A DNA stretch of 64,000 nt from an uncultured bacterium (GTDB lineage Bacteria; Eisenbacteria; RBG-16-71-46; CAZHEV01). The DNA lies in contig CAZHEV010000013.1 of the NCBI GenBank assembly GCA_964531335.1, forward strand, positions 22,732 to 86,731, in the 5' to 3' direction. The translations under genes were made by a program, and so were the position numbers. Positions 22,009 to 39,848 of the stretch are shown here, in pieces. How positions within the stretch are numbered: the first letter of the stretch is position 1; every line of letters starts with the position of its first letter. The notes under the pieces are model-generated. The model saw nothing but the letters and a program-made list of their open reading frames with translations, did no database searches and was not told where the DNA came from.

Positions 22009-22037
22009 TTGACCCGAGCTTGGCTATTTGGCATAAT
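22009..22037 (+). promoter_or_regulatory. Near-consensus sigma70-type promoter TTGACC-17-CATAAT upstream of arsR
   Basis: Direct reading: TTGACC 22009-22014, CATAAT 22032-22037. Confidence 0.4.
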
Positions 22038-22070
22038 GTCCAAAGACGGGCGCATAGGAGGTCGGTGGCC

Positions 22071-22391
22071 ATGGACAAAAAGACACAGGCGCGTTTCGAG
22101 GCCAGAGCCCAGATCATCAAGGCAATGGCTCACCCCACACGGCTCTTCATCGTGGACGAGCTGTCCCGCCATGAGAGATGCGTGTGCGAGCTGACCGAGA
22201 TGGTCGGCGCCGATGTATCCACAGTATCAAAGCACCTCTCCCTGTTGAGGAACGTGGGCATTGCTGAAGATGAAAAGCGCGGCTCCCAAGTCTTCTACAA
22301 GTTGAAGATGCCTTGCGTCCTGAACTTCTTCTCCTGCGTGGAGTCGGTGTTGGATTCAAGGGCCAAGGAGTGGGCGAAGCTTGCCAGGTAG
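22071..22391 (+). CDS. arsR: ArsR/SmtB-family metalloregulator with CVC metal(loid)-binding motif
   Basis: Start ATG 22071 with RBS GGAGG; HTH region with HERCVCELTEMVGADVSTVSKHLSLLRNVGI (Cys-Val-Cys as in As(III)-sensing ArsR). Confidence 0.8.
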   Translation: MDKKTQARFEARAQIIKAMAHPTRLFIVDELSRHERCVCELTEMVGADVSTVSKHLSLLRNVGIAEDEKRGSQVFYKLKMPCVLNFFSCVESVLDSRAKEWAKLAR

Positions 22392-22509
22392 AGGCTCTTT
22401 TTTTCGGCGGACATCTGGCGATTCAGCCAAGAAACCAAAGGTTGAGCGCGAACATGAGACACGAGCCGAACTCATTTGCTCAAAGGGATATTCGGAGAAG
22501 ATCACAACT

Positions 22510-22818
22510 GTGAAGAATCGGAGGAAATTCGCCCGGCCGGCGGGGATCTTCCTGGTTGTGTACTTCCTTCCCTTGGGAAACGTGAAGGTTGAAAACGCCA
22601 TCCTCGAGGCTTTCCGGCTTCTGCAGTGGTATGCGATTCACCACACCCTCGCCTGCGTGGTCCCGGCCCTGTCGCTTCTCAGCCTGTTGGTTGTCTGCAA
22701 GGTCCTGGGCGGCCGGAAGACCCTTGTCTTCTCGGTGCTGACGGTAGTGAACTCTTGTTGGCTGTCTGTTTGGAATGTTCGCCTGGCAGAGAACCAGACG
22801 AAACCGCTGGGGTTATAG
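22510..22818 (+). CDS. Small hydrophobic protein (possible permease fragment)
   Basis: In-frame GTG 22510 with GGAG 12 nt upstream; the longer track ORF starts at a TTG overlapping arsR; hydrophobic segments; no confident family match. Confidence 0.3.
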   Translation: MKNRRKFARPAGIFLVVYFLPLGNVKVENAILEAFRLLQWYAIHHTLACVVPALSLLSLLVVCKVLGGRKTLVFSVLTVVNSCWLSVWNVRLAENQTKPLGL

Positions 22819-22840
22819 CTTTGGAAAGGACAAACCACCA

Positions 22841-23071
22841 ATGAAGACCATTCAAATCCTGGGCACCGGCTGTCCCAAGTGCAACCAACTGGAAGAAAAC
22901 GCCAGGAAGGCCGTAGAGCAATCAGGCGCAGGGTACGACATCAAGAAGATCACCGACTTGAAGGAGATCATGAAGTTCGGGGTCATGATAACTCCCACGC
23001 TCGCGATCGACGGTCAGGTCAAGGCGTCCGGGAAGGTGCTGTCGGTTGATGAGATTCTGGAGCTCTTGTAG
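22841..23071 (+). CDS. Small thioredoxin-fold protein (redox-active disulfide protein, TM0996/MTH895-like)
   Basis: 76 aa from ATG 22841: MKTIQILGTGCPKCNQLEENARKAV... CPxC active site. Confidence 0.75.
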   Translation: MKTIQILGTGCPKCNQLEENARKAVEQSGAGYDIKKITDLKEIMKFGVMITPTLAIDGQVKASGKVLSVDEILELL

Positions 23072-23179
23072 CGGCATCAGTACGAACGACCGATCGAAGC
23101 CGTCTTGTTCAAGGATAGTGGATTTCACGGTTGCGCCGGCCCGCCGGTGGAGCCCCTGTATAAGGAGAGACCACGTCAA

Positions 23180-23971
23180 ATGGTCAGGATACGCCTGCAT
23201 GTTATACGTAAGAAGCGAGCCCACGCGACCGAGCTTCTTCTGAGCGCCCTTCTTCTCGCCTTCGGCGTCGGGCTCTTTCTCGAGCTCACTTGGCCGGCCT
23301 TGGCCGAAGCGAGAACAGGCGGGCCGCGCCCCATGTCGATGAACATGCAGGAGCCGTTGGATCAGAATGCAGGGCCTGAGAGCTCCGGCCCGATCGCGAT
23401 CGGTTCGGACGCCCGCTCGGCGCCATCTGACACGTCGAGCCAATTCGCCGCGGACAGGGCCGCGCGTGCGGGCTCTCCCGACAGCCTGAACGAGGCGGCA
23501 ACCGATCCGGAGGTGAAGCCAGGGCCTCCCGACAGCCTGGTCGCCCTCTACTTTCACCGTACTCTGCGGTGTGAGGACTGTCTCCTGATGGAGATCTACA
23601 TCAGGGACGTTCTGGAGAGTGACTACCTGGACCCTTTGCTGGAGGGAACACTGCGCTGGCGCTCTCTCGACTACGAGCAGCCTGAGCACGCCGGCAGCGC
23701 CGAAAAGTACCAATTCGGAGGTCCCGCCCTTGTCCTTTCCCATTGGTCGGGGGGTAGGGAAGCCTTGTGGGCGAGAATGGACGAAATATGGCAGTGGGTC
23801 GACTACCCGGATGCCGTGGCGGACATGCTTCGTGCTCAATTGCGCGAATGCCTGGCCGGGACCTGCCGGCACGATGAATTCCACATGCCCGACGCCGGTG
23901 ACGCGCGGGCTCCGGGAGATACCACGCGGGGATCGCAAGAGAGGACGGGAACGGACAATGACCAAAGGTAG
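23180..23971 (+). CDS. Hypothetical membrane-anchored protein with CxxC motif
   Basis: ATG 23180 preceded by AAGGAGAG; N-terminal hydrophobic anchor; motif YFHRTLRCEDCLLMEIY; no family recognised. Confidence 0.45.
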   Translation: MVRIRLHVIRKKRAHATELLLSALLLAFGVGLFLELTWPALAEARTGGPRPMSMNMQEPLDQNAGPESSGPIAIGSDARSAPSDTSSQFAADRAARAGSPDSLNEAATDPEVKPGPPDSLVALYFHRTLRCEDCLLMEIYIRDVLESDYLDPLLEGTLRWRSLDYEQPEHAGSAEKYQFGGPALVLSHWSGGREALWARMDEIWQWVDYPDAVADMLRAQLRECLAGTCRHDEFHMPDAGDARAPGDTTRGSQERTGTDNDQR

Positions 23972-24401
23972 AAGGATAGCGGTAGTCGGGCTCGTCCTGG
24001 CCGCCGTCGTTGTGGCGTTTGTAATGAAGGAGGCCCGCCGGGACAGCGGGGGCTCCGAACCCGGCAGGACAGCCGGCAATGCGGCGGGCGCCGTCGCGAA
24101 GCCTGAGACCCTTCCCCGGCTTGTCGACCTCGGGCGAAACCAATGCATCCCGTGCAAGATGATGGCTCCGATTCTCGAGGAGCTGAAGAATGAGTATGCC
24201 GAACGGTTCGTGGTCGAGGTGATAGACGTCGGGGAGCATCGGGACGCCGCCGCGAAGTACGGCATAAGAGTGATACCGACCCAGATCTTCTTCGACGCCT
24301 CCGGCGACGAGCGGTTTCGACATGAAGGCTTCATGTCCAAGGAGGACATACTGGCCAAGTGGGAGGAGCTCGGGATCGACGTGAAACTTGAAGACTCATG
24401 A
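23958..24401 (+). CDS. Membrane-anchored thioredoxin-family protein (TlpA-like)
   Basis: ATG 23958 (overlaps upstream gene); N-terminal TM; thioredoxin-like CIPC active-site context. Confidence 0.7.
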   Translation: MTKGRRIAVVGLVLAAVVVAFVMKEARRDSGGSEPGRTAGNAAGAVAKPETLPRLVDLGRNQCIPCKMMAPILEELKNEYAERFVVEVIDVGEHRDAAAKYGIRVIPTQIFFDASGDERFRHEGFMSKEDILAKWEELGIDVKLEDS

Positions 24402-24419
24402 GACGGAGTGGAATTACCG

Positions 24420-25118
24420 ATGGAGAATCTCTTTAACAGTCTGACGGACGCCGTTCAAAGCTCCGCTCCCGTGGCCTTGGCGGCGTCGTTCGTTTGGGGA
24501 ATCTTGAGCATCCTGCTGAGCCCCTGCCACTTGTCCAGTATCCCGCTCATCGTGGCTTTCATGGGCGAGCACGGGGACAGGTCCGGCGGACGAGCTCTCA
24601 GGATATCCACGATGTTTGCGCTGGGGATTCTCGTGACGATAGGCATCATCGGCGTGATCACCGCGATGATGGGCCGGATGCTGGGCGACGTGGGCCCTTA
24701 CATTAATTACCTCCTGGCGCTCATCTTCTTTCTGCTGGGCCTTCACTTCCTCGGGGTCATACCCATGCCCTGGTCCGGCGGCGGTCCGAGGGCATCCGCG
24801 AAGCGGGGCGTCTGGGCGGCGTTCGTTCTGGGCCTGGTCTTCGGCGTGGGCGTGGGGCCGTGCACCTTCGCGTACATGGCCCCCATGTTGGGCGTGACGT
24901 TCAAGGTGGCGGCGGAGAGCTGGCTGTTCGGGGTGGCGCTTCTCTTGCTATACGGCGTGGGTCACTGTTCCGTGATTGTCTTGGCGGGCACTTCGGCGGA
25001 GATGGTGCAGCGCTACCTCAACTGGACCGAGGCCTCCCGGGGCGCAGTGATGCTGCGTCAGGCTTGCGGAATTCTCGTGATCCTAGGAGGAGTATACCTG
25101 ATATACACGGCGCCGTGA
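24420..25118 (+). CDS. ccdA: Cytochrome c biogenesis / thiol-disulfide transporter CcdA (DsbD transmembrane domain family)
   Basis: Polytopic membrane protein with the two conserved Cys (LLSPCHLSSIPL and GVGPCTFAYMAPM) characteristic of CcdA/DsbD. Confidence 0.8.
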   Translation: MENLFNSLTDAVQSSAPVALAASFVWGILSILLSPCHLSSIPLIVAFMGEHGDRSGGRALRISTMFALGILVTIGIIGVITAMMGRMLGDVGPYINYLLALIFFLLGLHFLGVIPMPWSGGGPRASAKRGVWAAFVLGLVFGVGVGPCTFAYMAPMLGVTFKVAAESWLFGVALLLLYGVGHCSVIVLAGTSAEMVQRYLNWTEASRGAVMLRQACGILVILGGVYLIYTAP

Positions 25119-25188
25119 GGTCGGGCCTCACGGAAACGGCATGTCGTTGCGCGACCGGGCACGGCGGCCTGCGATTCAGGAGAAGAAC

Positions 25189-25602
25189 ATGGAGGATACA
25201 AGCCGAGAGACCATCAGAGGGAAACAATACGATCTTGTGTTCGCCTGCTCCGGCGCATGCGACGTGGGACTAATCGCCGATGGGGCGGCCCGTTTGCTCA
25301 CGGAAGAGAGGATTGCGTCCATGTGCTGCATCGCTGCAATCGGCGCGGGAGTGCCGGACATCGTGGAAAAGGCACAGGCCGCACGGCGGATGGTCGCCAT
25401 CGACGGGTGCTCAAGCGAGTGCTCGAGGAAGATCCTGGAGAAGGCGGGATTCGAGGGGTTCGCTCACATTCAGCTTGAATCGTTCGGCATGGAGAAAGGC
25501 AAGACGCCGGCAGGCCGCGAAAAGATGCAAAGAGTGAAGGGTCTCGCCGCGTTGGAGCTTGCCCCCGGCGCGGGACGGCCACCGGGGTGCTGCTGCTCCT
25601 GA
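25189..25602 (+). CDS. DGC-domain putative zinc-binding protein
   Basis: ATG 25189 with RBS AGGAG; motifs FACSGACDVG, AIDGCSSECS, C-terminal PPGCCCS. Confidence 0.7.
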   Translation: MEDTSRETIRGKQYDLVFACSGACDVGLIADGAARLLTEERIASMCCIAAIGAGVPDIVEKAQAARRMVAIDGCSSECSRKILEKAGFEGFAHIQLESFGMEKGKTPAGREKMQRVKGLAALELAPGAGRPPGCCCS

Positions 25603-25682
25603 GCGTGAGTTGCGGCATGTGGCCCGACGGCAATCTCTAAGGTGTGGGAGAAGACGAACCGCCGGCGGAGGGACGGAAGGTA

Positions 25683-26945
25683 ATGAAGGACGGCAAGAAC
25701 TGGAAAGCGACTGCCCTGCTGTCAACGATCGTGTTGATTTCGATCACGCTGATCGCCTGGATAACGGGCTACTGGGTGCTGACCGCCCTGCCAATAGGCT
25801 TTCTATTCGGGTTCTTCCTGGAGAAGGCCGATCTCTGCGGCTCATCGGCTTTCAGCGAGGCCTTCATGATGAAGGACTGGAGAAAGCTCCAGGGCATATG
25901 GGTCGTGGCGGTGGCGAGCATGCTGGGCTTCGCGCTCTTGTCGGGGCTGGGCTTGGTGAAGCTCAATCCCAAGCCGCTGCTCTGGGCGAGTTACATCGTC
26001 GGCGGCCTAGTGTTCGGGATCGGCATGGTCCTGGCCGGCGGATGCGTAAGCGGCAGCCTCTACAAGACCGGGCAGGGGAATCTCAATTCCATGGCCGCTC
26101 TCGTTGGAATCCCGCTGGGCGTGGCGGCGGTCGAGTACGGGCCGCTCAACGGCATCCACAAGGCCCTCAGAAGCCTGGTTGTCAATAACAGCGACGGAAG
26201 CTCGGTCACCCTCAGCTCAGTGACGGGGCTGCCCTACTGGTCGCTGGCTCTTATCATCGCCGCAATCACCGTTGGGACGGCCCTCCACTTGAGGCGCACT
26301 TCCAGGAAGAGCAAAGCTATGCCGGATGCCAAACCCGGCGACATGCCTTTCTTGACGAGGGCCATTGCAAGACCTTGGAAGCCCTGGCAGGCGGGAATAC
26401 TGATCGGCATCCTTGCTTCTTTTGCCTACCTGTCCTCGGCGGCCAGCGGAAGAAATTATCCCTTTGGAGTCACGCACGGACCGATGCACGTCAACCTGTT
26501 GATTACCGAAACCTCTTTGACCCATATCTACGCTCCCAAGCCCAGCCCGCCGGTCGCCGCGGCCGCTGAACGGGAGCAGCCAAGCCGGACGCCCGCCGGC
26601 GCGCAAGCAGGAGCGGCAAAGGCCAAGCACGAGGGCTCCAAGAAAGTCTCATGGTGGCTGATCCTTGAAGTTTGCGCCCTGGTTCTGGGCTCCTTTGTGA
26701 GCGCGCGGCTCTCGGGAAGGGCCAGGCTGTCTCCCAAACCCCCGGAGCAGACCGTGGTCGCCTTCTTCGGCGGCCTGATGGTCGGCACCGGAGCCGCCAT
26801 AGCCGGAGGCTGCGTCGTGGGAAATATTATGAGCGGCCTCGCCCTTATGAGCGTGGGCAACGTGATCTTCGCGGTGGTTGTTCTGGTTGCCAATTGGGGC
26901 ACCACGTACTTTTACATGATGGGGCGGCAGCTCCCCGTGAGGTAG
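25683..26945 (+). CDS. YeeE/YedE-family sulfur-compound (thiosulfate-type) transporter
   Basis: Two repeats each carrying the hallmark GGC motif (VLAGGCVSGSLYK and AIAGGCVVGNIMS); polytopic membrane protein. Confidence 0.85.
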   Translation: MKDGKNWKATALLSTIVLISITLIAWITGYWVLTALPIGFLFGFFLEKADLCGSSAFSEAFMMKDWRKLQGIWVVAVASMLGFALLSGLGLVKLNPKPLLWASYIVGGLVFGIGMVLAGGCVSGSLYKTGQGNLNSMAALVGIPLGVAAVEYGPLNGIHKALRSLVVNNSDGSSVTLSSVTGLPYWSLALIIAAITVGTALHLRRTSRKSKAMPDAKPGDMPFLTRAIARPWKPWQAGILIGILASFAYLSSAASGRNYPFGVTHGPMHVNLLITETSLTHIYAPKPSPPVAAAAEREQPSRTPAGAQAGAAKAKHEGSKKVSWWLILEVCALVLGSFVSARLSGRARLSPKPPEQTVVAFFGGLMVGTGAAIAGGCVVGNIMSGLALMSVGNVIFAVVVLVANWGTTYFYMMGRQLPVR

Positions 26946-26951
26946 AGACGA

Positions 26952-28262
26952 GTGAATGGCGAGTGGGTTGTCGTGATCCTCATCGTCCTGAGTCTATTCG
27001 TCGTTCAGCCATCCACCGCGCAAGAGTCAGACGCGGATTCCTCCCATTCGCGCATCGAGCTGCGATCGCATTCCGGACAGGTGAAGGTCCGCTTGGGCGC
27101 GGAATTCAACTTCGACTACCTCGGTTTCGACCGCGGCGAACAAAGCATCCCCGGTGTCGGAGCGCAGGAAAACGACTTCATGGTGAAACGGGGCAGGATA
27201 TACCTGGCCGGGAGCCTGCACCGTCAAATCGACTTCAAGATCAAGGCGGGCCTGGAGCTTGAAGGCACGCCGCTCATCGACGCGTACGCCGCACTCCACT
27301 TGCCCTGGGGGATCGACGTGCGCGCGGGGCAGCTAAAGGTCCCCTTCAGCGAGGAGCGCCTGCGAAGCTTCTCTCGGCAGCCCTTCATGGAGCGCGGACT
27401 GGCCCACGGCCTCGCGCTGCGCAGAAGCCAGGGAGTCTATTTCTCAGGCCGGCCCGGGCGTGGAGGGGTTCGTGTCGACCTCGGCACGGTGACGGGAGAG
27501 AGCCTCCACGAGCACAGTACGGATGATGAGTTCGAGTACGTAGGTAGGGTTGCGCTTGTACTCGATCAGATCTTCGCCGGATTTCCCGGGGCCGGTGCAG
27601 TGCGTGCGGCTGCGGCCCGGGGCGGGCGCCGTCCTGAGAGGGGGCCGACGAATTCTTTCTTCGGAAAAACGATGAACGGGCTGGAGTTCTTCACCCCCGT
27701 GCCTGTAAGCGGCCTGCGCACCCGCTACGAGGCGGACGTCGAGTTTCAAAGGCGGTGGTTGTGGGTCGCCGCGGAGTGGATGGGCGTGGAGGAAGAGCGA
27801 AACGGTGTGGCGGTCCGGCTTGACACCGACGGCGATGGGATTGCGGATGATAGCGTGGTCCGCGATCTCAATCCGCTGCTCGAGCGCGGGTGGATGGCTT
27901 ACGCGGTATTCATGCTCACCGGAGAAGACGCCGACGATTGGGTGGTTCCGAAGCGCAGGAGTGGCGCCCTGAGCCTAGCTCTAAGATACAGCACCGTCGT
28001 TTTTGATTCACAGCAGGACCGGATTCGCGCGGGAACGCCCGGCCTTTCCGGAGTCGAGGTCAGCGACGCGTCAGAGGCACTGGGCCGTCCCAACATCGAC
28101 GAAAGCGTGAACGACCTTTACGTAGGCTTGAACTGGTACGTTGCATCTGGCGTGTTTGTGCAGACCGCGGCCGTGTGGCAGTGGTTCGAGTACTCATCGC
28201 CGTATGGCGGGGGCGACCGCTCAGACGTCAATTACCGGGCGAGGATGGGCGTGGTATTCTAG
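26952..28262 (+). CDS. Outer-membrane porin, OprO/OprP (phosphate-selective porin) like
   Basis: GTG start; signal peptide ...VVQPSTAQE; beta-barrel-like composition; C-terminal aromatic residue (F). Confidence 0.65.
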   Translation: MNGEWVVVILIVLSLFVVQPSTAQESDADSSHSRIELRSHSGQVKVRLGAEFNFDYLGFDRGEQSIPGVGAQENDFMVKRGRIYLAGSLHRQIDFKIKAGLELEGTPLIDAYAALHLPWGIDVRAGQLKVPFSEERLRSFSRQPFMERGLAHGLALRRSQGVYFSGRPGRGGVRVDLGTVTGESLHEHSTDDEFEYVGRVALVLDQIFAGFPGAGAVRAAAARGGRRPERGPTNSFFGKTMNGLEFFTPVPVSGLRTRYEADVEFQRRWLWVAAEWMGVEEERNGVAVRLDTDGDGIADDSVVRDLNPLLERGWMAYAVFMLTGEDADDWVVPKRRSGALSLALRYSTVVFDSQQDRIRAGTPGLSGVEVSDASEALGRPNIDESVNDLYVGLNWYVASGVFVQTAAVWQWFEYSSPYGGGDRSDVNYRARMGVVF

Positions 28263-28446: not shown

Positions 28447-29124
28447 TTACTTCCGGCGATTTTCCGGGCTGTTGGCACGGCATTCAGGCAGGACACCCAA
28501 ACACCCCGCCAGTGCCAGTAGGTATTTGTCTCGGGTGCTCTCATGGATGCTGCTCGTGAACGCGCCGAGCCAGGGGAACAGATAACTGTCTTCAAAGTGA
28601 CATTGACGAAGTATCAGGCGTTCCCCCTCCGCCGTGTCGCCGCCGTCCAGCGTCCCACAGGCCCTTTCCAGCAAATGACCGCTGAACTCCAACTCGACGG
28701 CAAGGTGGTCCGGAAGCTCGCACTGTTGCTCTGAGATGACCAGCCCTTCTTCCTCATACAGACGCTCGACCTGCCGGGTCGTGTCGCCGTAGATGTGCCG
28801 GCCCGGCTCCAGGTAGACTGAACCATAAGGAGGCGACGGGACGGACGCCGGGCCGATGAACTGCCGGGTGTAGGCTACCTGCAGGTCCTCCCGTGATCGG
28901 GATTTCAACTCGGATTGCAAGGCCTCAATTGCGACGGTGTCCGGGACTCCAAGCGATTGAACCGCCCGGCGGAGTCTGGGAACAAGCTCCGCGCTCAGGA
29001 AATCCTCAGGCTCAGGAAGGCAACACAACGCGGATAGAATCAGCCTGATTTCGGCATGCTCGCGCAAGTTCGCGCTCAGCGCCGCCATGTTTCGGGATCG
29101 TTCACAAAAAGGTTCATTGATCAT
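28447..29124 (-). CDS. TorD/DmsD-family redox-enzyme maturation chaperone (ArrD-like)
   Basis: YTRQFIGP...PPYGSVYLE...ELPDHLAVELEF motifs typical of TorD-like chaperones; start could be 29124 or 29088. Confidence 0.75.
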   Translation of the reverse strand: MINEPFCERSRNMAALSANLREHAEIRLILSALCCLPEPEDFLSAELVPRLRRAVQSLGVPDTVAIEALQSELKSRSREDLQVAYTRQFIGPASVPSPPYGSVYLEPGRHIYGDTTRQVERLYEEEGLVISEQQCELPDHLAVELEFSGHLLERACGTLDGGDTAEGERLILRQCHFEDSYLFPWLGAFTSSIHESTRDKYLLALAGCLGVLPECRANSPENRRK

Positions 29125-29151
29125 AGGGACTTACAATCCGGTTCACCACGA

Positions 29152-29916
29152 TCACGCGTTCTTTCGACCGGAGAACTCGCCTACGTAGTAAACATTCGGC
29201 TCCGTGCCCGCGTCTTCCCGCAGCCTGAATGCCTTCTGACGCTTCATAGCCTCCCGGACTTCCGCTTTTGGGTCATCGAGATCACCGAAGATCCTCGCGC
29301 CCGCCGGGCAAGCCTCGACACATCGCGGAGCCTCTCTCAGCTCGACACGATGGGCGCACAGGATACATTTTTCAACGACGTCCGCGCGCCGCACGTTGTC
29401 ATAGTCGGGATGACGGTACAGCGTTCTGTGCGGCGGTGTTTGCCGCGATAAGCCGGCTACCTCCGCACCCGACGAAGTACCGCCGGGGATGACTTCCCTC
29501 TTGCCGGAGTACAGGGCATGAGCCACGCCGTTTTCATTGAAGCTGATCACGCTGTACTGTCTACCCTCGTCATCGACATCAAGAGCGCTGTAGGGACACG
29601 CTTCCTGGCACGACTGGCAGCCGATACAGCGCTCGTCGTTGTGCATGGTTATCCCGTCCGGCGTCTTGAACATTGCCTTTGGCGTGACCGGACACGCCTC
29701 GACACAAGCCGCCCTGCTGCAGTGGTTGCAGAGAACCGGCATGGTCGTGTACTTGACATCGGGAAATGTGCCCTCTTGAGTGATCAGGAAATCAGCCCAA
29801 TTGAATGTCTGCCCGTTCGCACGATCGCCCGTGTTGTTCTCCGTCTTACAGGCGATGGCGCACGCCCCGCAGCCGACGCATTTGTGGAGATCTATAACCA
29901 TTCCGTACTGGGCCAT
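29152..29916 (-). CDS. Molybdoenzyme iron-sulfur subunit with four 4Fe-4S clusters (ArrB/PsrB/DmsB-like)
   Basis: ATG 29916 with RBS GGAGG 9 nt upstream; four Cys clusters (CVGCGACAIAC, CNHCSRAACVEACP, CIGCQSCQEACP, CILCAH...CVEACP). Confidence 0.85.
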   Translation of the reverse strand: MAQYGMVIDLHKCVGCGACAIACKTENNTGDRANGQTFNWADFLITQEGTFPDVKYTTMPVLCNHCSRAACVEACPVTPKAMFKTPDGITMHNDERCIGCQSCQEACPYSALDVDDEGRQYSVISFNENGVAHALYSGKREVIPGGTSSGAEVAGLSRQTPPHRTLYRHPDYDNVRRADVVEKCILCAHRVELREAPRCVEACPAGARIFGDLDDPKAEVREAMKRQKAFRLREDAGTEPNVYYVGEFSGRKNA

Positions 29917-29944
29917 GGCGTCCATCCTCCAATTGAAGCGCGTG

Positions 29945-32470
29945 TCAGATCTTCTCGATCTTTACGCCGGTAAAGCCTCCATTGCGAGCCGTGCTCCCGG
30001 AAAGGCGGTCATAATCGGCCGGCATTATTTCGTTGTTGTTCACTCCCCTGGGGATCTTGCCGAACTCAGCCGAGGCAAAGCGGCCGTAAGCCCAATGCCC
30101 CTGCCCGTAGCACTTGGTCGCCACTCCAGGGGGTATCCCTTCCCAGGGTTTCGCTTTTATCTCAAAACTGCCGGTCACCGAGGATACGAGAACCCTGTCT
30201 CCATGGTTGATTCCCAGCCGAGCCGCATCTTTGGGGTTCATCTTCAGCACGTCGTCCCAGCTCTCATCGCCGGGATCGACCTTCTTCATCTCGTGGTACC
30301 AGGTTGTGTTTTGGCTGCGCCCTTCTCTGTTGAGCCGTGATTTGTGATCCAGGAATACGAACGGGTACTCTTCGACATCGCCCCATCGGAAGGGTGGTTC
30401 GTAGTGCGGAACAAAGGCCTGCTCACCACGCGCCGTGTACTTACAGCTCTCAAGGATGTCATCCACGCTCGTCGCATGCTTGTCGGCGTGGGCCTGGAGA
30501 GCCTTCTTGAGCGTTTCGCTGTAGAACTCGAATCTGTGCGTCTCGGTCTTGAACTTTCCCCAACGCTTCTTGTAAGGATATGGGTCTGAATTCCACATCC
30601 CGCGCTTCCTGAGCTCGTCCCAGCCTGCGATGCCGTCGCCATCGTGACCCGCGGCGTCCATCCAAAGCGGGGACAAGTAATACTTGGTTGAATAGAGCGC
30701 GAACTCCCGCTCGTTTGACGGCGACTTGCCGGTGTCCACGTCTTTGAACTCCTGCTTGAAGTAGTCCAGGAGATTCGGGAATCCCCTCGCCGCCAGACGT
30801 TCGGCGATCAGATACGGTATCTCCGTCTCGTCGATCTTGACGTTCCAGAGGGGATCAACAACGGGCTGAAGCAATGAGGCGTATGCGAAACGGTTTTGTT
30901 TGCCTTTGACCCATCCCCATTTTTCGAAAGTAGTCATTGCACACGGCAAGACGATGTCCGCAAACATCGTCATTTCCGAGGCGTTGGTCGTTAGATGCAC
31001 AAAGAACGGGATCTTCCGCATCGCCCTCTCCCAACGCCGGGCACCGGTACACGAAAAGGGAAAATTGCACATATAACCGATCGCAAGCTTGATATCATAT
31101 GGATCTTCTTCAAGGATCCCGGTTGCGGCATTGTTGGTCACGACACCGCCGCCCGGCTTTCCTTCCTTGAGAGAAGGGAATTCCTTATAGCCGCGCTGGT
31201 CGATCTTCTTGTGCTTCAGCTTTGCGAGGTCGTCCAGGTAAGCGTCGATTTTGGGCATCTTGAGAACCGGGACATGGGCCTTGTCCATCGTACCGCCCTC
31301 GTTGTCAACGGAGCCCAGCAGACCATTCAGCGCGTGAATGGCCATTGCTGCATAGCTTCCGCGGACCTGCATGCAGGAACCCGGGCCGAGCCAGACGGCG
31401 ACATTCGGCGAAGCGTGCCCGAGACCACGCGCGACACGTCTGATCTGATCGGCGGACACTCCGGTGACTCCCTCGGCCCACTTCGCGGACCGGTCCTTCA
31501 ACTCGATGTTCCACCATGCCGCGAGCCCGTGGGTGTGATTCTCCGTAAATAGAACCTCATCTACGGTCTCTCCCGGCTTGAAACGGTTCTTTTCATCGTT
31601 GAAATCGCCGACGAACTCCCGGTTCCAAGCGCCGTTTACAAGAATCTCATGCGCCAGAGCCACTGCCAGCGCCCCATCCTCGCCGGGCTTTACCGGAAGC
31701 CATTCTTGAGCTTTGATGGCTGAGGTGTGAAGTCTCGGATCGACGACCGCCAGTGTTCCGCGGTCAACCACCCCGTGAAGTCTCTTTATGGCAGCAGGCA
31801 CCATTCTGTTCGAAGCGACGGGGTCGCACCCCCAGACAAGAAGGTACGCGCACTTGTCGAGATCGTAGTCGCGGTAGTCCCAGAGTCCCTCCGTAAAATA
31901 AGGGCCGAATTTCTCGGCTTCGGCGCAGATTGCACTGTGTGAGATGTTATTCGGCGATCCGATAATCTTGGTCATCGCTTCGTAGATCACGTCACGCATG
32001 TAAGTGTATCTTCCCCGCAGCAGCAGGTACTTATGCGCCTCACCCGACCGCCGTAGTGAGAGAATCCGCTCCGCTATGGTATCCAGCGCCTCGTCCCAAG
32101 TGATGGCAACGAACCGCGGGTCCTCACCGCGACCCTTATTCGGGTTCGTGCGCTTCAAGGGGGCCTTTACGCGATCAGGGTCATAGACTTGCTGCAGTCC
32201 AATGTGGCCACGAGGGCAGCAGACACCATCGTTCTGCTTCGAGTGCCGGTTTCCCTGTACCTTGACGGCCCGGCCATTCTGAACGAAGACCTCGAGCGGG
32301 CACCAAGTCGTGCACCCCTGGCACGTAGTGGGTATCCACTCACCAGCCGCTTCTTCCACACGAAAACTCTTTTTCACCGAAGCCAGCGCGTTCAGGCGGA
32401 AACCACCCGTCGTCAACAACGCGCCGGCGGCGGCGGCGGACTTGAGGAAGTCACGCCTCCGAATCCGCAT
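29945..32470 (-). CDS. Molybdopterin oxidoreductase catalytic subunit, DMSO-reductase family, Tat-exported (ArrA/ArxA/PsrA-like)
   Basis: ATG 32470 with RBS GGAGG; twin-arginine signal MRIRRRDFLKSAAAAGA; N-terminal Fe-S motif CQGCTTWC...C (C-x2-C-x3-C-x26-C). Substrate not assignable from sequence alone. Confidence 0.85.
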   Translation of the reverse strand: MRIRRRDFLKSAAAAGALLTTGGFRLNALASVKKSFRVEEAAGEWIPTTCQGCTTWCPLEVFVQNGRAVKVQGNRHSKQNDGVCCPRGHIGLQQVYDPDRVKAPLKRTNPNKGRGEDPRFVAITWDEALDTIAERILSLRRSGEAHKYLLLRGRYTYMRDVIYEAMTKIIGSPNNISHSAICAEAEKFGPYFTEGLWDYRDYDLDKCAYLLVWGCDPVASNRMVPAAIKRLHGVVDRGTLAVVDPRLHTSAIKAQEWLPVKPGEDGALAVALAHEILVNGAWNREFVGDFNDEKNRFKPGETVDEVLFTENHTHGLAAWWNIELKDRSAKWAEGVTGVSADQIRRVARGLGHASPNVAVWLGPGSCMQVRGSYAAMAIHALNGLLGSVDNEGGTMDKAHVPVLKMPKIDAYLDDLAKLKHKKIDQRGYKEFPSLKEGKPGGGVVTNNAATGILEEDPYDIKLAIGYMCNFPFSCTGARRWERAMRKIPFFVHLTTNASEMTMFADIVLPCAMTTFEKWGWVKGKQNRFAYASLLQPVVDPLWNVKIDETEIPYLIAERLAARGFPNLLDYFKQEFKDVDTGKSPSNEREFALYSTKYYLSPLWMDAAGHDGDGIAGWDELRKRGMWNSDPYPYKKRWGKFKTETHRFEFYSETLKKALQAHADKHATSVDDILESCKYTARGEQAFVPHYEPPFRWGDVEEYPFVFLDHKSRLNREGRSQNTTWYHEMKKVDPGDESWDDVLKMNPKDAARLGINHGDRVLVSSVTGSFEIKAKPWEGIPPGVATKCYGQGHWAYGRFASAEFGKIPRGVNNNEIMPADYDRLSGSTARNGGFTGVKIEKI

Positions 32471-32513
32471 AGCAACCTCCAAGGGGGCATGTCATTGTGC
32501 TTGGCATCGAAGC

Positions 32514-33023
32514 TCAACGCTCATCGCCGACCTGGCTGTCTCGATGCTCCGACCATCCGCAACATTCCCCGTCTGTCTCACGGCAGTCCGGGCTCCCTGG
32601 TTCAAGCGCCGGGGGCAACGATTCCGGATCTCCCAGGTCGGCAATGGTGATCTCGCGCGCGGCCGAATAGAAAGCGTCTCTGGCTCGGCCCCAGGCGCGA
32701 TCAAACTTGCACGGATTCTGCTCCGTACAGTCACCCAATCCGAGTCGGCATCCAGTCTCTCCATGCAAATGCTCAATGCCTTCTATCACTTCCAGTAGAG
32801 AGATCTTGTGCGGAGGCCGGGCCAGCCCGTAGCCTCCGGTGAAGCCCCGCTTTGAAGTGACAAATCCCAGGTCTCTGAGGGAATGAAGGATCTTGGCCAA
32901 ATACGGGCGTGGCACGTTAGCGCAAGCCGCGAGTTCCTCCCGTTTCCGCAAAGGCCCTATACAGAACGCCAGGCAACGTAGAGCCCTGATGGCATAGACC
33001 GAGGAGTTCGATAGTCCGAACAT
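32514..33023 (-). CDS. Rrf2-family (IscR/NsrR-like) Fe-S transcriptional regulator
   Basis: ATG 33023 with RBS AAAGGAG; MFGLSNSSVYAIRALRCLA N-terminus; three-Cys cluster CRLGLGDCTEQNPC. Confidence 0.8.
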   Translation of the reverse strand: MFGLSNSSVYAIRALRCLAFCIGPLRKREELAACANVPRPYLAKILHSLRDLGFVTSKRGFTGGYGLARPPHKISLLEVIEGIEHLHGETGCRLGLGDCTEQNPCKFDRAWGRARDAFYSAAREITIADLGDPESLPPALEPGSPDCRETDGECCGWSEHRDSQVGDER

Positions 33024-33061
33024 TTTTGACTCCTTTCCGTGTGAACCTAGCATTTATGACC

Positions 33062-33462: not shown

Positions 33463-33909
33463 ATGCGCGATTTCATGACCATAGCGAAGGCACTCTCGGA
33501 TCAGAACCGGATCAGGATGCTCATGGCGCTCTCCGGGGGTGAGCTCTGCGTGTGCCAGATCACGGAGCTCGTGGGCCGGTCTCCTTCTACCGTATCCAAG
33601 CATATGTCCATTCTGAGGCAGGCGGGTCTTGTTGAAGGAAGAAAGGTCGGCCGTTGGGTCTATTACAAACACCCGGATCGCGACGTTCCCGACCTTGTGC
33701 GCGGCACTCTGAAGTGGGTGCGCAGCTCCCTGGCGGAAGATCCGCATATACTCGCGGATGTGAAACGCCTTGAGGAGGTCTTGAAGCTCGATCCCGAGGT
33801 TTTGTGCCGAGGGCAGAGCATGACGTGTCAATCCTCTCCCGGACGATCATCGGCGAAGGCCGGGACCCGAAAGCGCGGGGTAGATCGCGCGCTCAAGCGC
33901 GCGGGATGA
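33463..33909 (+). CDS. arsR: ArsR/SmtB-family metalloregulator with CVC motif
   Basis: LMALSGGELCVCQITELVGRSPSTVSKHMSILRQAGLV; Cys-Val-Cys as in As(III)-responsive ArsR. Confidence 0.8.
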   Translation: MRDFMTIAKALSDQNRIRMLMALSGGELCVCQITELVGRSPSTVSKHMSILRQAGLVEGRKVGRWVYYKHPDRDVPDLVRGTLKWVRSSLAEDPHILADVKRLEEVLKLDPEVLCRGQSMTCQSSPGRSSAKAGTRKRGVDRALKRAG

Positions 33910-34131
33910 TCTGGGCCACCGTGGTATCGGATCGGCCCGGCCACCCGCGGCGGCGGCCCAGCGATGCACACACTGAGCAACGCCACGCAATTGCCGGCAC
34001 CGCGCTGGTGGCCGCGGTTCAGCGGCGGATACCGAACGAAGTTGTGCGGTTGCCGGCGCCGGCATCATCAAGGAGGCATTGCAGGAAACGGCGGCCGACC
34101 TAAACGAACGGGAGCTTGGAGGAGAGGAGCC

Positions 34132-34995
34132 ATGGGAAAGAAACTGTTGTTGGCAGTATCGATTTGCGCTGTAGCCGCGTTCGTCGTGTACGCGGCGGTG
34201 AACATCCGGGGGATGGAACCGGGATCGGCCGGCGCAGCGGCTGATTTGCCACAATCTGCGGGCGTTTCCCGTGAAGGGCCCGCCGCCGCTGCCGGCGAGC
34301 GGCTGGAAGGATCCGGCGACGGCATGGCCGCGCTGAGAGACGCCGCCGAGGAGGATAAGTATGCTTTCGCCTTCTTCTATAAGGACGAGGATGAAGGCAC
34401 GCAGGAGATGAGGGAGTTGTTCGAGACGGCGATGGAGAAGGTCACAGATCGTGCCGAGCACGTGATCCTCAACGCCGCCGACCCTTCGGAGAAGGACATG
34501 ATCGAGAAGTACGGAATTGACCGATCACCCATGCCGTTGGTACTGGCGTTCGCTCCCAACGGTGCACTGACCCGGGGGCTTCCCAGATCCTTCACCGAGG
34601 AGCAGATAATGAGCTGCTTCGTGAGCCCGTGCATGGAAATGTGCCTCAAGGGCGTGCAGGACAGCAGGCTTGTCGCGGTGTGCGTGCAAAACGGCTCAAC
34701 GCGGTTCAACGAGGAGGCGATGGCTGGAGTGCGGGCATTCATGACGGATCCGCGGTTTGCCCGGATGACCGATCTTGTCATGTTGGACCCCAGCGATCCG
34801 GATGAAGCCACGACCTGTAAGAGGTTCAGCGTCGATCCCGACACCGACCAGGCGATAACCCTTCTGCTCGCGCCTCCGGGCAACATCATCGGAAGATTCA
34901 AGGGGGCGACCGACAAGGACGACATGGTCTCCATTCTGACGAGAGCCACGTCCGGCGGATGCGGTCCGGGCAGCGGCTCTGGATGTTGCCCCTAG
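34132..34995 (+). CDS. Hypothetical exported protein with Cys-rich C-terminal tail
   Basis: ATG 34132 with RBS GGAGGAGAGGAG; N-terminal signal/anchor MGKKLLLAVSICAVAAFVVYAAV; C-terminus GGCGPGSGSGCCP; internal CMEMC. Confidence 0.5.
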   Translation: MGKKLLLAVSICAVAAFVVYAAVNIRGMEPGSAGAAADLPQSAGVSREGPAAAAGERLEGSGDGMAALRDAAEEDKYAFAFFYKDEDEGTQEMRELFETAMEKVTDRAEHVILNAADPSEKDMIEKYGIDRSPMPLVLAFAPNGALTRGLPRSFTEEQIMSCFVSPCMEMCLKGVQDSRLVAVCVQNGSTRFNEEAMAGVRAFMTDPRFARMTDLVMLDPSDPDEATTCKRFSVDPDTDQAITLLLAPPGNIIGRFKGATDKDDMVSILTRATSGGCGPGSGSGCCP

Positions 34996-35013
34996 TAGCC
35001 CGGAGGTAACGAA

Positions 35014-36905: not shown

Positions 36906-36926
36906 CGGGTATGTCGCGGAGCGGAT

Positions 36927-38495: not shown

Positions 38496-38936
38496 ATGCC
38501 ACTGAGAATACTGTTTCTGTGCACCGGGAATTCGTGCCGCAGCCAGATGGCCGAAGGTTGGACGCGACATCTCAAAGGCGACGTGGTGGAGCCGTACTCG
38601 GCCGGGATAGAACCTCGCGGAATCGATCCCCGCGCCGTGACGGTAATGGCGGAGGTCGGCGTGGATATTTCGAGGCAGAGCTCCAAGCACGTTGACGAAT
38701 TCAAAGGCACAGCCTTCGATTTCGTCGTGACCGTCTGCGACCATGCGAGCGAACACTGCCCGATCTTTCCTGGCGATACCCAAGTGGTGCACGTGGGTTT
38801 CGAGGATCCTCCCAAGCTGGCGGAAAACGCCGAGACCGAAGAGGAGGCGCTCGGCCACTACAGGCGCGTCAGAGACGAGATACGGGCATTTGTGCAGACG
38901 CTGCCGGCTGCCTTGGAAGGAGACGGGAGACAATGA
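38496..38936 (+). CDS. arsC: Arsenate reductase, thioredoxin-coupled LMW-PTPase type
   Basis: CX5R motif LFLCTGNSCRSQMAEG and downstream Cys pair VCDHASEHCP. Confidence 0.85.
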   Translation: MPLRILFLCTGNSCRSQMAEGWTRHLKGDVVEPYSAGIEPRGIDPRAVTVMAEVGVDISRQSSKHVDEFKGTAFDFVVTVCDHASEHCPIFPGDTQVVHVGFEDPPKLAENAETEEEALGHYRRVRDEIRAFVQTLPAALEGDGRQ

Positions 38937-39838: not shown

Positions 39839-39848
39839 GAGTGCGACG

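What the first reader, a model, noticed from the sequence alone, without database searches (positions are those of the whole stretch)
22071..28262. ArsR-gated nine-gene thiol-redox / sulfur-transporter / porin operon with no canonical arsenic detox gene
Nine co-directional, tightly spaced or overlapping genes follow a near-consensus promoter: a CVC-motif ArsR, a small hydrophobic protein, a CPxC mini-thioredoxin, a membrane-anchored CxxC protein, a TlpA-like thioredoxin, CcdA, a DGC zinc-binding protein, a YeeE/YedE transporter and an OprO/P-like porin. The set spans cytoplasm, inner membrane, periplasm and outer membrane, and looks like a dedicated route for importing or exporting a thiol-reactive species (thio-arsenic, selenium or a reactive sulfur compound) coupled to trans-membrane electron delivery. 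I do not recognise this combination as a described system.
Basis: partly seen in the sequence, partly recalled or inferred. Interest (0 to 1): 0.7.

Follow-up and report, generated by a model that had tools for sequence, protein, structure and literature searches.

The report
Arsenic-island accessory operon with sulfur-type transporter
This is the ArsR-controlled accessory operon of a roughly 19-kb arsenic island (next to a respiratory arsenate reductase and arsC-arsM-acr3): a local variant of a widespread but poorly understood anaerobe cassette, and its thiosulfate-transporter-like gene belongs to a clade found almost only in arsenic operons.

Summary
The nine co-directional ORFs and the near-consensus promoter are real, and HMMs confirm eight of the nine gene identities. 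Three corrections are needed.

1. The "small hydrophobic protein" is a relic. It is an ArsP-type permease gene with an in-frame internal deletion of about 1 kb.
2. The operon does carry arsenic-named genes: an ArsE-family mini-thioredoxin and an ArsF-family exported CxxC protein. Its CcdA is a distant homologue of ArsG.
3. The operon is not isolated. It converges on rrf2-arrA-arrB-arrD, and arsR2, arsC, arsM and acr3 lie 5-13 kb downstream.

Comparative evidence:
- Of 49 species-level genomes carrying a YeeE at least 43% identical to this one, 44 have ars genes within 6 kb. Of 31 genomes with more distant YeeEs, 1 does (p about 1e-15).
- The usual order is arsR-arsP-yeeE-arsE-arsF-arsG.
- The YeeE-porin pair recurs only in close relatives.
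- A related ArsR-ArsP-ArsE-DGC operon is arsenic-induced in a cultured sulfate reducer.

Best reading (inferred, not shown): two modules.
- A periplasm-directed thiol-reducing relay: mini-Trx, then CcdA, then anchored Trx, then the ArsF-like protein.
- An anion route (porin, then YeeE) for a sulfur-bearing oxyanion, either thiosulfate or thioarsenate.

Verdict: a new variant of a known kind, of moderate interest.

The parts
22009..22037 (+). Sigma-70-type promoter TTGACC-17-CATAAT (TG-extended -10), followed by AGGAGG before the arsR1 start codon
   Evidence: 10 of 12 matches. Conserved in relative L001. Sequence read.
22071..22391 (+). arsR1: ArsR/SmtB repressor with a CVC motif aligned to R773 Cys32/Cys34, plus a subfamily-specific C81/C88 pair
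   Evidence: NF033788 82.7 bits (cut-off 55) and PF01022. Orthologue alignment.
22510..22818 (+). Relic of an ArsP_1 (DUF318) organoarsenical-type permease gene with an in-frame internal deletion of about 1 kb
   Evidence: BLASTP against the intact 433-aa ArsP of L001: aa 1-54 match its N-terminus (6e-29) and aa 55-83 match its residues 395-423 (2e-9). DNA synteny break. Junction microhomology CCGGCC(C/A)TGT. All 252 library hits match only query residues 1 to about 60.
22841..23071 (+). Cytoplasmic mini-thioredoxin (GCPKC), MTH895/ArsE family
   Evidence: TIGR00412 103.8 bits (cut-off 62) and PF13192.
23180..23971 (+). ArsF-family exported or anchored protein: N-terminal TM helix, low-complexity linker, domain with the invariant R-C-x-x-C motif (RCEDC)
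   Evidence: NF040494 66.7 bits (cut-off 60). Family alignments. Signal peptides throughout the family. TM helix pLDDT 85-91.
23958..24401 (+). Membrane-anchored thioredoxin (CIPC); overlaps the arsF-like stop by 14 nt
   Evidence: PF00085 49.7 bits. Invariant C-x-x-C in 11 homologues.
24420..25118 (+). CcdA/DsbD-type transmembrane thiol-disulfide electron conduit, with both TM cysteines present (SPCH, GPCT). A distant homologue of ArsG.
   Evidence: PF02683 41.9 bits. 24% identity and E 4e-9 over the full length of a bona fide ArsG. No NF040495 hit.
25189..25602 (+). DGC-domain protein with four conserved cysteines and a C-terminal GCCCS tail
25683..26945 (+). YeeE/TsuA-like inner-membrane transporter of an ars-associated clade; three relay cysteines conserved
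   Evidence: PF04143 202 bits. PDB 6LEO at E 7e-36. Invariant C52/C121/C377. Context statistics.
26952..28262 (+). OprO/OprP-family outer-membrane anion porin; starts 6 nt after the yeeE stop
   Evidence: PF07396 52.1 bits. The YeeE-porin pair recurs in L085 and L086, with remnants in L005 and L001.
28447..33053 (-). Convergent rrf2-arrA-arrB-arrD: respiratory arsenate reductase cluster with a Tat signal and a TorD-type chaperone
   Evidence: ArrA NF041714 1121 bits over the full length (cut-off 1600; next family 235 bits). ArrB NF041715 236 bits. PF02613 chaperone. Rrf2 TIGR00738.
33463..33909 (+). arsR2: second ArsR-family regulator
   Evidence: NF033788 91 bits. 86% identical to its L001 counterpart.
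33964..38126 (+). Conserved island genes: 343-aa protein, FtsX/MacB-type permease, ABC ATPase, DUF1573 protein
   Evidence: Same order in L001.
38496..41039 (+). arsC (thioredoxin-type), arsM (arsenite methyltransferase) and acr3 (arsenite efflux)
   Evidence: TIGR02691 142 bits (below cut-off 174). NF008823 317 bits (cut-off 263). TIGR00832 381 bits (cut-off 283).

Best explanation
The region is the arsR1-controlled accessory operon of a roughly 19-kb arsenic island (22.0-41.0 kb) in an uncultured diderm anaerobe. It is a lineage-specific rearrangement of a cassette that is widespread in anaerobes: arsR-arsP-yeeE-arsE-arsF-arsG.

What differs here:
- arsP has been inactivated by an in-frame deletion.
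- ArsG is replaced by a membrane-anchored thioredoxin plus CcdA.
- A DGC protein and an OprO/P-type porin have been added.

Proposed working (inferred):
- ArsR1 represses the promoter at 22009-22037 until a trivalent arsenical binds its cysteines.
- Module 1 carries reducing power out of the cytoplasm. The path runs from the ArsE-type mini-thioredoxin (or the general thioredoxin) to CcdA, then to the periplasmic anchored thioredoxin (CIPC), then to the exported ArsF-like RCxxC protein. That last protein reduces a periplasmic target: thiols blocked or oxidised by arsenicals, or an arsenic(V) or thio-arsenic compound.
- Module 2 moves a sulfur-bearing oxyanion across both membranes. The anion-selective porin takes it across the outer membrane and the YeeE channel, using its three relay cysteines, takes it across the inner membrane. 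The substrate is thiosulfate or its arsenic analogue monothioarsenate.
- The Cys4 DGC protein is an ars-associated metal- or thiol-binding accessory protein of unknown role.

Shown: gene identities, the arsP deletion, the island context, and the co-occurrence statistics. Inferred: co-transcription, the inducer, the direction of transport, the substrate, and the electron path.
For: - Family assignments.
- Island context: arrABD, arsC, arsM and acr3.
- Close relative L001 has the same operon with an intact 433-aa ArsP and the same downstream arsR2...arsC-arsM-acr3.
- YeeE context: 44 of 49 genomes with a YeeE at least 43% identical have ars genes within 6 kb, against 1 of 31 for more distant YeeEs (Fisher p = 1e-15). 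Trx_3 is directly adjacent to YeeE in 19 genomes and ArsP in 17.
- L003 has ArsR-Acr3-ArsM-YeeE-ArsC.
- The ArsF+ArsG pair (16 loci) and the Trx+CcdA pair (13 loci) never co-occur as full pairs, so they look like alternative versions of one function.
- All ArsF-family members carry signal peptides and an invariant RCxxC.
- ArsG and this CcdA are full-length homologues that both keep the two TM cysteines.
- YeeE aligns to the thiosulfate transporter structure 6LEO with all three relay cysteines.
- YeeE-porin pairs with 4-nt overlaps occur in L085 and L086.
- The homologous ArsR-ArsP-ArsE-DGC operon is arsenic-induced in P. mercurii ND132.
Against: - There are no expression or biochemical data for this locus.
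- The permease that is the most constant partner of ArsR1 and Trx_3 elsewhere is dead here, so part of the cassette may be decaying.
- The published function of ArsEFG is nitroreduction and efflux of aromatic arsenicals, which differs from the relay proposed here.
- CcdA does not reach the ArsG model, and ArsF membership is borderline (66.7 against 60).
- A thioredoxin fold for ArsF is only hinted at: PDB profile hits at E 0.2-0.3 and an hhalign probability of 1.6%.
- DGC shows no diagnostic fold match and is not consistently next to YeeE.
- The porin accompanies YeeE only in a few close relatives (1 of 49 GTDB loci) and could serve the adjacent Arr instead.
- Importing a toxic thioarsenate from a resistance operon is not intuitive.
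- ArsR1's invariant C81/C88 pair resembles the C-terminal cysteine of persulfide sensors.
Confidence: 0.5

Rival explanations
1. Arsenic-inducible sulfur supply. The YeeE-porin pair simply imports thiosulfate, as TsuA does. The purpose is to replenish cysteine and thiol pools that arsenite depletes. No arsenic species is transported.
For: The closest characterised relative is the thiosulfate importer YeeE/TsuA (6LEO, E 7e-36) and the three relay cysteines are conserved. The best NCBIfam hits are TsuA models. The porin belongs to an anion-selective family.
Against: All TsuA models score far below their cut-offs (184 against 400; 127 against 645). No YeeD/TusA partner is among the nine ORFs. The clade occurs mainly in sulfide-rich anaerobes such as Desulfobacterales and Zixibacteria, where sulfur is not limiting. 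The neighbours are ars genes, not cys genes.
Confidence: 0.2
2. A published-type ArsEFG system. The Trx_3 and ArsF-like proteins reduce the nitro group of trivalent roxarsone or nitarsone, and the CcdA-like protein exports the amino product. YeeE, DGC and the porin are unrelated passengers.
For: ArsE-family and ArsF-family HMMs pass their cut-offs. PGAP names the homologous trio ArsF, ArsG and 'thioredoxin' in a Prevotella ars operon. The function is as reported by Chen, Zhang and Rosen 2019 (Environ Sci Technol 53:6182). That paper was not readable here, so its content is taken from memory and from the NCBIfam names.
Against: The ArsG model is not matched. ArsF proteins are exported CxxC proteins, and ArsG is a DsbD-superfamily protein with both redox cysteines. 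The cassette is common in MAGs from natural anoxic habitats across many phyla, where synthetic nitro-aromatic arsenicals are an unlikely selective agent. YeeE is too consistently linked to be a passenger.
Confidence: 0.1
3. A sulfur (persulfide or thiosulfate) import-and-sensing operon of the SoxT/SoxR or BigR type. It is regulated by a persulfide-sensing ArsR-family repressor and lies beside arsenic genes by chance.
For: YeeE-like SoxT transporters work with ArsR-type SoxR and a periplasmic thioredoxin in sulfur oxidisers (PMC11582611). ArsR1 orthologues have an invariant C-terminal cysteine pair. There is a weak BigR hit of 48.8 bits.
Against: The BigR model is far below its cut-off of 155. 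The CVC motif sits at the classical As(III) site. ArsR1 orthologues almost always precede arsP. 44 of 49 loci carry arsP, acr3, arsC or arsM. The related ND132 operon responds to arsenic. The SoxT paper reports no arsenic-linked group.
Confidence: 0.1
4. The porin belongs functionally to the convergent arr cluster. It would admit arsenate, a phosphate analogue, to the periplasmic ArrAB, and it is merely co-transcribed with yeeE.
For: OprO/P-family porins select phosphate-like oxyanions (family knowledge; PF07396 hit). The porin and the arr cluster are present or absent together relative to L001.
Against: L001 keeps the 5' remnant of the porin directly after yeeE. In L085 and L086 the porin overlaps yeeE by 4 nt, and no arr genes are seen on those admittedly short contigs.
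Confidence: 0.25

Closest known systems
ArsEFG organoarsenical resistance system (Shewanella putrefaciens 200; NCBIfam TIGR00412, NF040494, NF040495)
   Same: It has an ArsE-family mini-thioredoxin and an ArsF-family signal-anchored RCxxC protein. These are followed by a DsbD-superfamily membrane protein, all under an ArsR.
   Different: The membrane protein is a CcdA (PF02683), not an ArsG-family member. An extra anchored thioredoxin is inserted. Gene order differs. The function reported for ArsEFG (nitroreduction and efflux) is not what the sequences suggest.
ArsR-ArsP-ArsE-DGC operon of Pseudodesulfovibrio mercurii ND132 (DND132_2311-2314; bioRxiv 10.1101/2022.10.17.512643)
   Same: It has the same four families in one ArsR-led operon, and that operon is arsenic-induced in a cultured anaerobe.
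   Different: Here ArsP is deleted. The operon additionally carries ArsF-like, Trx, CcdA, YeeE and porin genes.
YeeE/TsuA-YeeD thiosulfate uptake (E. coli and Spirochaeta thermophila; PDB 6LEO and 8K1R)
   Same: It shares the Sulf_transp fold family and the three conserved relay cysteines. It is an inner-membrane anion pathway.
   Different: Identity is about 30%, the protein is about 80 aa longer, and it scores below every curated TsuA or YedE cut-off. There is no YeeD/TusA partner. The genomic context is ars genes rather than sulfur assimilation.
CcdA/DsbD-thioredoxin (ResA/CcmG-type) periplasmic reducing pathways
   Same: A two-cysteine DsbD_TM conduit is encoded next to a membrane-anchored CxxC thioredoxin.
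   Different: It is embedded in an ars operon, with an extra exported ArsF-like CxxC protein as the likely terminal acceptor. There are no cytochrome c maturation genes.
SoxT1/SoxR sulfur import and signalling (Hyphomicrobium denitrificans; PMC11582611)
   Same: It combines a YeeE-like transporter, a periplasmic thioredoxin-like protein and an ArsR-family regulator.
   Different: There are no sox or hdr genes. The regulator has the arsenite-type CVC site. The neighbours are arsenic genes.

Membership tests
ArsEFG system | ArsE: MTH895/ArsE-family mini-thioredoxin (TIGR00412) | tested here: met
   103.8 bits against a cut-off of 62; GCPKC motif.
ArsEFG system | ArsF: NF040494-family protein | tested here: met
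   66.7 bits against a cut-off of 60, which is borderline. Covers profile positions 2-104 of 106. The invariant RCxxC is shared with the PGAP-named Prevotella ArsF.
ArsEFG system | ArsG: NF040495-family transporter | tested here: not met
   No hit at E <= 0.01, whereas a true ArsG scores 292.9 bits. This protein is only 24% identical to that ArsG.
ArsEFG system | Confers nitroreduction of, and resistance to, roxarsone(III) or nitarsone(III) | not testable with these tools
   Requires expression and arsenic speciation assays.
Canonical ars resistance operon | ArsR/SmtB repressor with an As(III)-type cysteine site | tested here: met
   NF033788 82.7 bits. The CVC motif aligns with R773 C32/C34. 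The R773 sequence was supplied from memory.
Canonical ars resistance operon | Arsenite efflux pump (ArsB or Acr3) and ArsC in the same operon | tested here: not met
   None among the nine ORFs. acr3 (381 bits) and arsC lie at 38.5-41.0 kb in a separate + strand unit.
ArsP organoarsenical efflux permease (PF03773) | Full-length permease of about 330-430 aa | tested here: not met
   Only 102 aa remain: the N-terminal 54 aa plus a C-terminal piece of about 29 aa. No Pfam hit even at E <= 1.
YeeE/TsuA thiosulfate transporter | Sulf_transp domain with three conserved pathway cysteines | tested here: met
   PF04143 202 bits. C52, C121 and C377 are invariant in 30 homologues and lie in the same motifs as the cysteine-containing motifs of 6LEO in the printed alignment.
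YeeE/TsuA thiosulfate transporter | Reaches a curated TsuA equivalog cut-off | tested here: not met
   NF052577 183.9 against 400. NF041049 127.4 against 645. YedE models also fall below their cut-offs.
YeeE/TsuA thiosulfate transporter | Adjacent YeeD/TusA-like partner | tested here: not met
   No TusA/SirA-family hit among the nine ORFs.
CcdA/DsbD reducing pathway | DsbD_TM domain with a cysteine in TM1 and another in TM4 | tested here: met
   PF02683 41.9 bits. The SPCH and GPCT motifs are present.
CcdA/DsbD reducing pathway | Extracytoplasmic CxxC thioredoxin-fold acceptor encoded alongside | tested here: met
   An anchored PF00085 thioredoxin with CIPC lies immediately upstream. The Trx+CcdA pair recurs in 13 loci. 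Topology is inferred from the N-terminal anchor, not measured.
OprO/OprP phosphate-selective porin | Porin_O_P domain | tested here: met
   PF07396 52.1 bits against 20.9, but the match covers only the first 164 of 370 model positions.
OprO/OprP phosphate-selective porin | Phosphate or polyphosphate selectivity (arginine ladder, lysine cluster) | not tested
   No structural model or residue mapping was made.
Respiratory arsenate reductase ArrAB (neighbouring cluster) | ArrA and ArrB equivalog models at curated cut-off | tested here: not met
   ArrA scores 1121 bits over the full length against a cut-off of 1600, and ArrB 236 against 450. Both are by far the best families; the next for ArrA is PhsA at 235 bits. 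ArrA has a Tat motif and an RGRY motif. It is filed as Arr-like.
BigR/SqrR/SoxR persulfide-sensing ArsR regulators | BigR equivalog model | tested here: not met
   NF040642 48.8 bits against 155.

The most novel reading that the evidence does not exclude
Two linked claims. First, the ars-associated YeeE clade, here with its own outer-membrane anion porin, would be the first dedicated transporter for thio-arsenic species such as monothioarsenate, the arsenic analogue of thiosulfate. Second, the ArsE/ArsF/ArsG and Trx/CcdA modules would be DsbD-like relays that deliver thiol reducing power to the periplasm to process arsenic-sulfur compounds. On that view the current naming of ArsF as a nitroreductase subunit and ArsG as an efflux permease would describe a side activity rather than the native role.
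Probability: 0.2. Interest if true: 0.75.

Novelty: new variant of a known kind. Interest (0 to 1): 0.5.

Why it matters
Arsenic operons of anaerobes carry several recurrent genes with no tested function. This locus and its 49 relatives single out three things.

- One YeeE clade is as tightly tied to ars genes as acr3 or arsC. That makes it a concrete candidate for a new arsenic gene.
- Thioarsenates dominate arsenic speciation in sulfidic waters. To my knowledge no transporter or enzyme specific for them is known. A thiosulfate-type channel under ArsR control, sometimes paired with an anion porin, gives a directly testable candidate.
- Sequence-level evidence suggests that ArsF and ArsG form an exported CxxC protein plus a DsbD-type conduit. 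They appear interchangeable with Trx and CcdA. This suggests that the mechanism of a named resistance system deserves re-examination.

Tried and rejected
- **An ArsF-ArsG fusion in L040.** Rejected: a stop codon separates the two genes.
- **Fold of the ArsF-like protein.** The single-sequence AF2 model has pLDDT 49 and is unusable apart from the TM helix. A profile search of the PDB gives only weak thioredoxin and glutaredoxin hits at E 0.2-0.3. hhalign against the anchored-thioredoxin profile aligns the CxxC motifs, but the probability is 1.6%. A thioredoxin fold is therefore suggestive only.
- **Sequence search of DGC and ArsF-like against the PDB.** Nothing found.
- **NCBI names for the window's own proteins.** None are recorded.
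- **The primary ArsEFG paper.** It could not be opened by PMID or DOI, and a related paper cited for context could not be opened by PMC id.
- **Literature searches.** Searches for YeeE, DGC or CcdA in ars operons, and two ars-operon surveys, found no description of the YeeE link.
- **Other sequence scans.** Terminator-like sites are not above chance (8 found, 6.2 expected). No convincing operator palindrome was found. There are no Rfam families or tRNAs in the window.
- **The two Porin_O_P genes in the window.** They are not detectably similar to each other.

Full report
**Observation.** Nine + strand ORFs lie between 22071 and 28262. Exact-sequence look-ups confirm the public gene calls:
- ArsR, 106 aa
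- a 102-aa ORF
- Trx_3, 76 aa
- a 263-aa protein starting at 23180
- a 147-aa thioredoxin starting at 23958
- CcdA, 232 aa, starting at 24420
- DGC, 137 aa, starting at 25189
- YeeE, 420 aa, starting at 25683
- porin, 436 aa, starting at 26952

Spacing between successive genes is 118, 22, 108, -14, 18, 70, 80 and 6 nt. TTGACC-17-CATAAT with a TG extension lies at 22009-22037, and AGGAGG precedes the ATG. The promoter is conserved in a relative whose DNA is about 84% identical. One consensus hit in 7 kb is not itself above chance. Terminator-like sites inside the block are not above chance either.

**Gene identities.**
- ArsR/SmtB: NF033788, 82.7 bits.
- MTH895/ArsE-family mini-thioredoxin: TIGR00412, 103.8 against 62; motif GCPKC.
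- ArsF-family protein: NF040494, 66.7 against 60, which is borderline.
- Classical thioredoxin (PF00085) with an N-terminal anchor and a CIPC site.
- DsbD_TM/CcdA: PF02683.
- DGC domain: PF08859.
- Sulf_transp/YeeE: PF04143, 202 bits. All TsuA and YedE equivalog models fall below their cut-offs.
- Porin_O_P: PF07396, matching the N-terminal half only.

**The second ORF is a relic.** It has no family hit even at E <= 1. A full HMMER scan of 1.8 billion representatives found 252 relatives. All of them match only its first 60 or so residues, and they match to the N-termini of proteins that are up to 456 aa long. I then compared it with the intact 433-aa ArsP_1 permease of the closest relative, L001. 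Residues 1-54 equal the permease N-terminus, and residues 55-83 equal permease residues 395-423. The DNA alignment shows window 21980-22672 matching L001 5369-6063, and window 22663-23321 matching L001 7074-7738. The junction lies in a short direct repeat, CCGGCC(C/A)TGT. So arsP suffered an in-frame deletion of about 1010 bp. The same deletion is present in a second assembly.

**Context.**
- Convergent with the operon, on the minus strand, are an Rrf2 regulator and a Tat-signal molybdoenzyme. The molybdoenzyme matches ArrA over its full length. It scores 1121 bits, which is below the equivalog cut-off of 1600, but the next family scores only 235 bits.
- That cluster also contains ArrB (236 bits) and a TorD/DmsD-type chaperone.
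- Downstream on the + strand lie arsR2 (33463-33909), a conserved 343-aa/FtsX/ABC/DUF1573 block, and thioredoxin-type arsC (38496-38933).
- After those come arsM (317 bits against 263) and acr3 (381 against 283).
- The nine genes are therefore one arm of a roughly 19-kb arsenic island. 'No canonical arsenic gene' is true only inside the stated coordinates.

**Close relative.** L001/L002 (YeeE 89% identical) has ArsR-ArsP-Trx_3-ArsF-like-Trx-CcdA-DGC-YeeE. It then goes directly to arsR2...arsC-arsM-acr3. Window 27100-33393, which holds most of the porin, arrDBA and rrf2, is missing there. However, L001 keeps about 170 nt homologous to the 5' end of the porin gene immediately after yeeE. So the ancestor had yeeE-porin and the relative lost the block.

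**Wider comparison.** A scan of one genome per GTDB species with a YeeE profile gave 80 loci. I searched them with the window's proteins using tblastn.
- 49 loci carry a YeeE 46-68% identical to the window's. They come from Desulfobacterales, Ignavibacteria, Zixibacteria, Acidobacteriota, Myxococcota, Phycisphaerae, Hyphomicrobiales and others.
- 44 of those 49 have an ars-linked gene within 6 kb. The counts are ArsR 37, Trx_3 35, ArsP 32, Acr3 26, ArsC 21, ArsF-like 16, CcdA 15, anchored Trx 13, DGC 8, ArsM 6 and porin 1.
- Among the 31 loci with more distant YeeEs (43% identity or less), only 1 has such a gene. Fisher p = 1e-15.
- Trx_3 is directly adjacent to YeeE in 19 loci and ArsP in 17.
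- The commonest order is ArsR-ArsP-YeeE-Trx_3-ArsF-ArsG, often followed by ArsC-Acr3.
- L003 has ArsR-Acr3-ArsM-YeeE-ArsC.

This YeeE clade is therefore an ars-operon gene. Two ars-operon surveys and six full-text searches gave no description of it.

**The redox genes.** A Prevotella plasmid annotated by PGAP carries ArsR-ArsF-ArsG-thioredoxin(Trx_3)-permease-ArsC-ACR3. Its ArsG scores 293 bits on NF040495.
- ArsG is a 235-aa DsbD-superfamily protein. The window's CcdA aligns to it over the full length (24% identity, E 4e-9), and both keep the two transmembrane cysteines. The window's CcdA does not, however, reach the ArsG model.
- Every ArsF-family protein examined has an N-terminal signal peptide or anchor and an invariant R-C-x-x-C.
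- A canonical ArsG follows ArsF in 16 loci. The anchored-Trx+CcdA pair occurs in 13 other loci. No locus has both complete pairs.
- The simplest reading is that these are alternative versions of one function: an exported CxxC protein kept reduced by a DsbD-type conduit. The window, L001 and L038 carry a hybrid of ArsF-like plus Trx plus CcdA.
- This is an inference. The thioredoxin fold of ArsF is only weakly indicated, and its single-sequence model failed.

**The transport genes.**
- YeeE aligns to the Spirochaeta thermophila thiosulfate importer (6LEO, E 7e-36). The three cysteines that relay thiosulfate are invariant in 30 homologues. Identity is low, there is an insert of about 80 aa, and there is no YeeD partner.
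- Porin homologues at 56% identity or more sit immediately after YeeE with 4-nt overlaps in L085 and L086. L086 also carries DGC, Trx_3 and DsbD_TM. Homologues at 50% identity or less are in unrelated contexts.
- The DGC protein has four conserved cysteines. It gives a confident model with a generic flavodoxin/HybD-like fold and no diagnostic match. Across genomes it accompanies ArsP/Trx_3 as often as it accompanies YeeE.

**Regulator.** ArsR1's CVC motif aligns with Cys32/Cys34 of R773 ArsR (sequence supplied from memory). Its orthologues, at 60-75% identity, almost always precede arsP. They also share an invariant PCxLxFFxCxE pair that is absent from ArsR2. The homologous ArsR5-ArsP-ArsE-DGC operon of P. 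mercurii ND132 is up-regulated by As(III) and As(V) (bioRxiv 10.1101/2022.10.17.512643). An arsenical inducer is therefore likely, but it is not shown for this protein.

**Mechanism.** I commit to two modules under ArsR1, with about 50% confidence in the overall picture.
- Module 1 is a cytoplasm-to-periplasm thiol-reducing relay: mini-thioredoxin, then CcdA, then anchored thioredoxin, then the ArsF-like protein.
- Module 2 is a two-membrane anion route, porin then YeeE, for a sulfur-bearing oxyanion.
- Monothioarsenate is the attractive substrate. It is isostructural with thiosulfate, the context is arsenic, and the habitats are sulfidic. Plain thiosulfate import for thiol replenishment is nearly as likely.
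- The other rivals rank lower, for the reasons listed under each: the published ArsEFG nitroreductase/efflux function, a SoxT/BigR-like sulfur sensor operon, and a porin that really serves Arr.

**Novelty.** The ArsE, ArsF, ArsP and DGC parts are known at annotation level, and partly at experimental level. Three things are new.
- The operon's architecture: loss of ArsP, ArsG replaced by Trx+CcdA, and the YeeE-porin pair.
- The demonstration that one YeeE clade is ars-specific across many phyla.
- The sequence-based case that ArsF and ArsG form a DsbD-like relay.

I rate this a new variant of a known kind, with interest 0.5.

**Limits.**
- The organism is unidentified. The nearest GTDB genomes are unclassified MAGs.
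- All functional statements beyond family membership and co-occurrence are inferences.
- The primary ArsEFG paper could not be read here.

Noticed in passing
window 41052-52971 (minus strand): A 12-kb block that is absent from relative L001. It contains a TauE-like protein, a NapH-like ferredoxin, a NifS-type cysteine desulfurase, a second Porin_O_P/ExtI-like porin (114 bits, below the cut-off of 150), an ArsR-rhodanese fusion regulator and an RND efflux trio. It looks like a chalcogen or metal handling unit beside the arsenic island. The two porins in the window are not BLASTP-similar.
   Followed up: partly
window 33964-38126 (+): A 343-aa protein with a weak Thioredoxin_6 hit, an FtsX/MacB-type permease, an ABC ATPase and a DUF1573 protein sit between arsR2 and arsC. 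The order is the same in L001. This is a conserved, uncharacterised ABC exporter inside the arsenic island.
   Followed up: partly
window 32514-33053 (-): An Rrf2-family regulator lies directly upstream of arrA, on the same strand as arrA-arrB-arrD. No ArrC-type membrane anchor or arrRS two-component genes were seen nearby.
   Followed up: no
GTDB loci L004-L052: The ArsF+ArsG pair (16 loci) and the anchored-thioredoxin+CcdA pair (13 loci) never occur together as complete pairs. All ArsF proteins have signal peptides and an invariant RCxxC, and ArsG keeps both DsbD-type cysteines. This fits a periplasmic reducing relay better than the names 'nitroreductase subunit' and 'efflux permease'.
   Followed up: yes
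window 22071-22391 and ArsR1 orthologues in about 20 loci: The ArsR1 subfamily has an invariant C-terminal PCxLxFFxCxE cysteine pair in addition to the CVC motif. A few orthologues lack the second CVC cysteine but keep the C-terminal pair. The sensing site may therefore differ from classical ArsR.
   Followed up: partly
L005:3221-6965: Duplicated YeeE gene fragments lie upstream of the full-length YeeE in the nearest GTDB genome. They are followed by a porin fragment (34% coverage) and arsC.
   Followed up: no
L086:411-5541: In another YeeE-porin locus the neighbours include a DUF1805 protein, two FmdE-domain proteins and a TauE-family transporter, ahead of Trx_3 and DsbD_TM. These are further candidate accessory genes of the same system.
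   Followed up: no
window 17568-21542 (-): A 1324-aa secreted protein with a beta-helix region and a C-terminal FlgD-Ig/Por_Secre_tail (T9SS-type) sorting domain. It hints at the lineage of the host but is unrelated to the operon.
   Followed up: no
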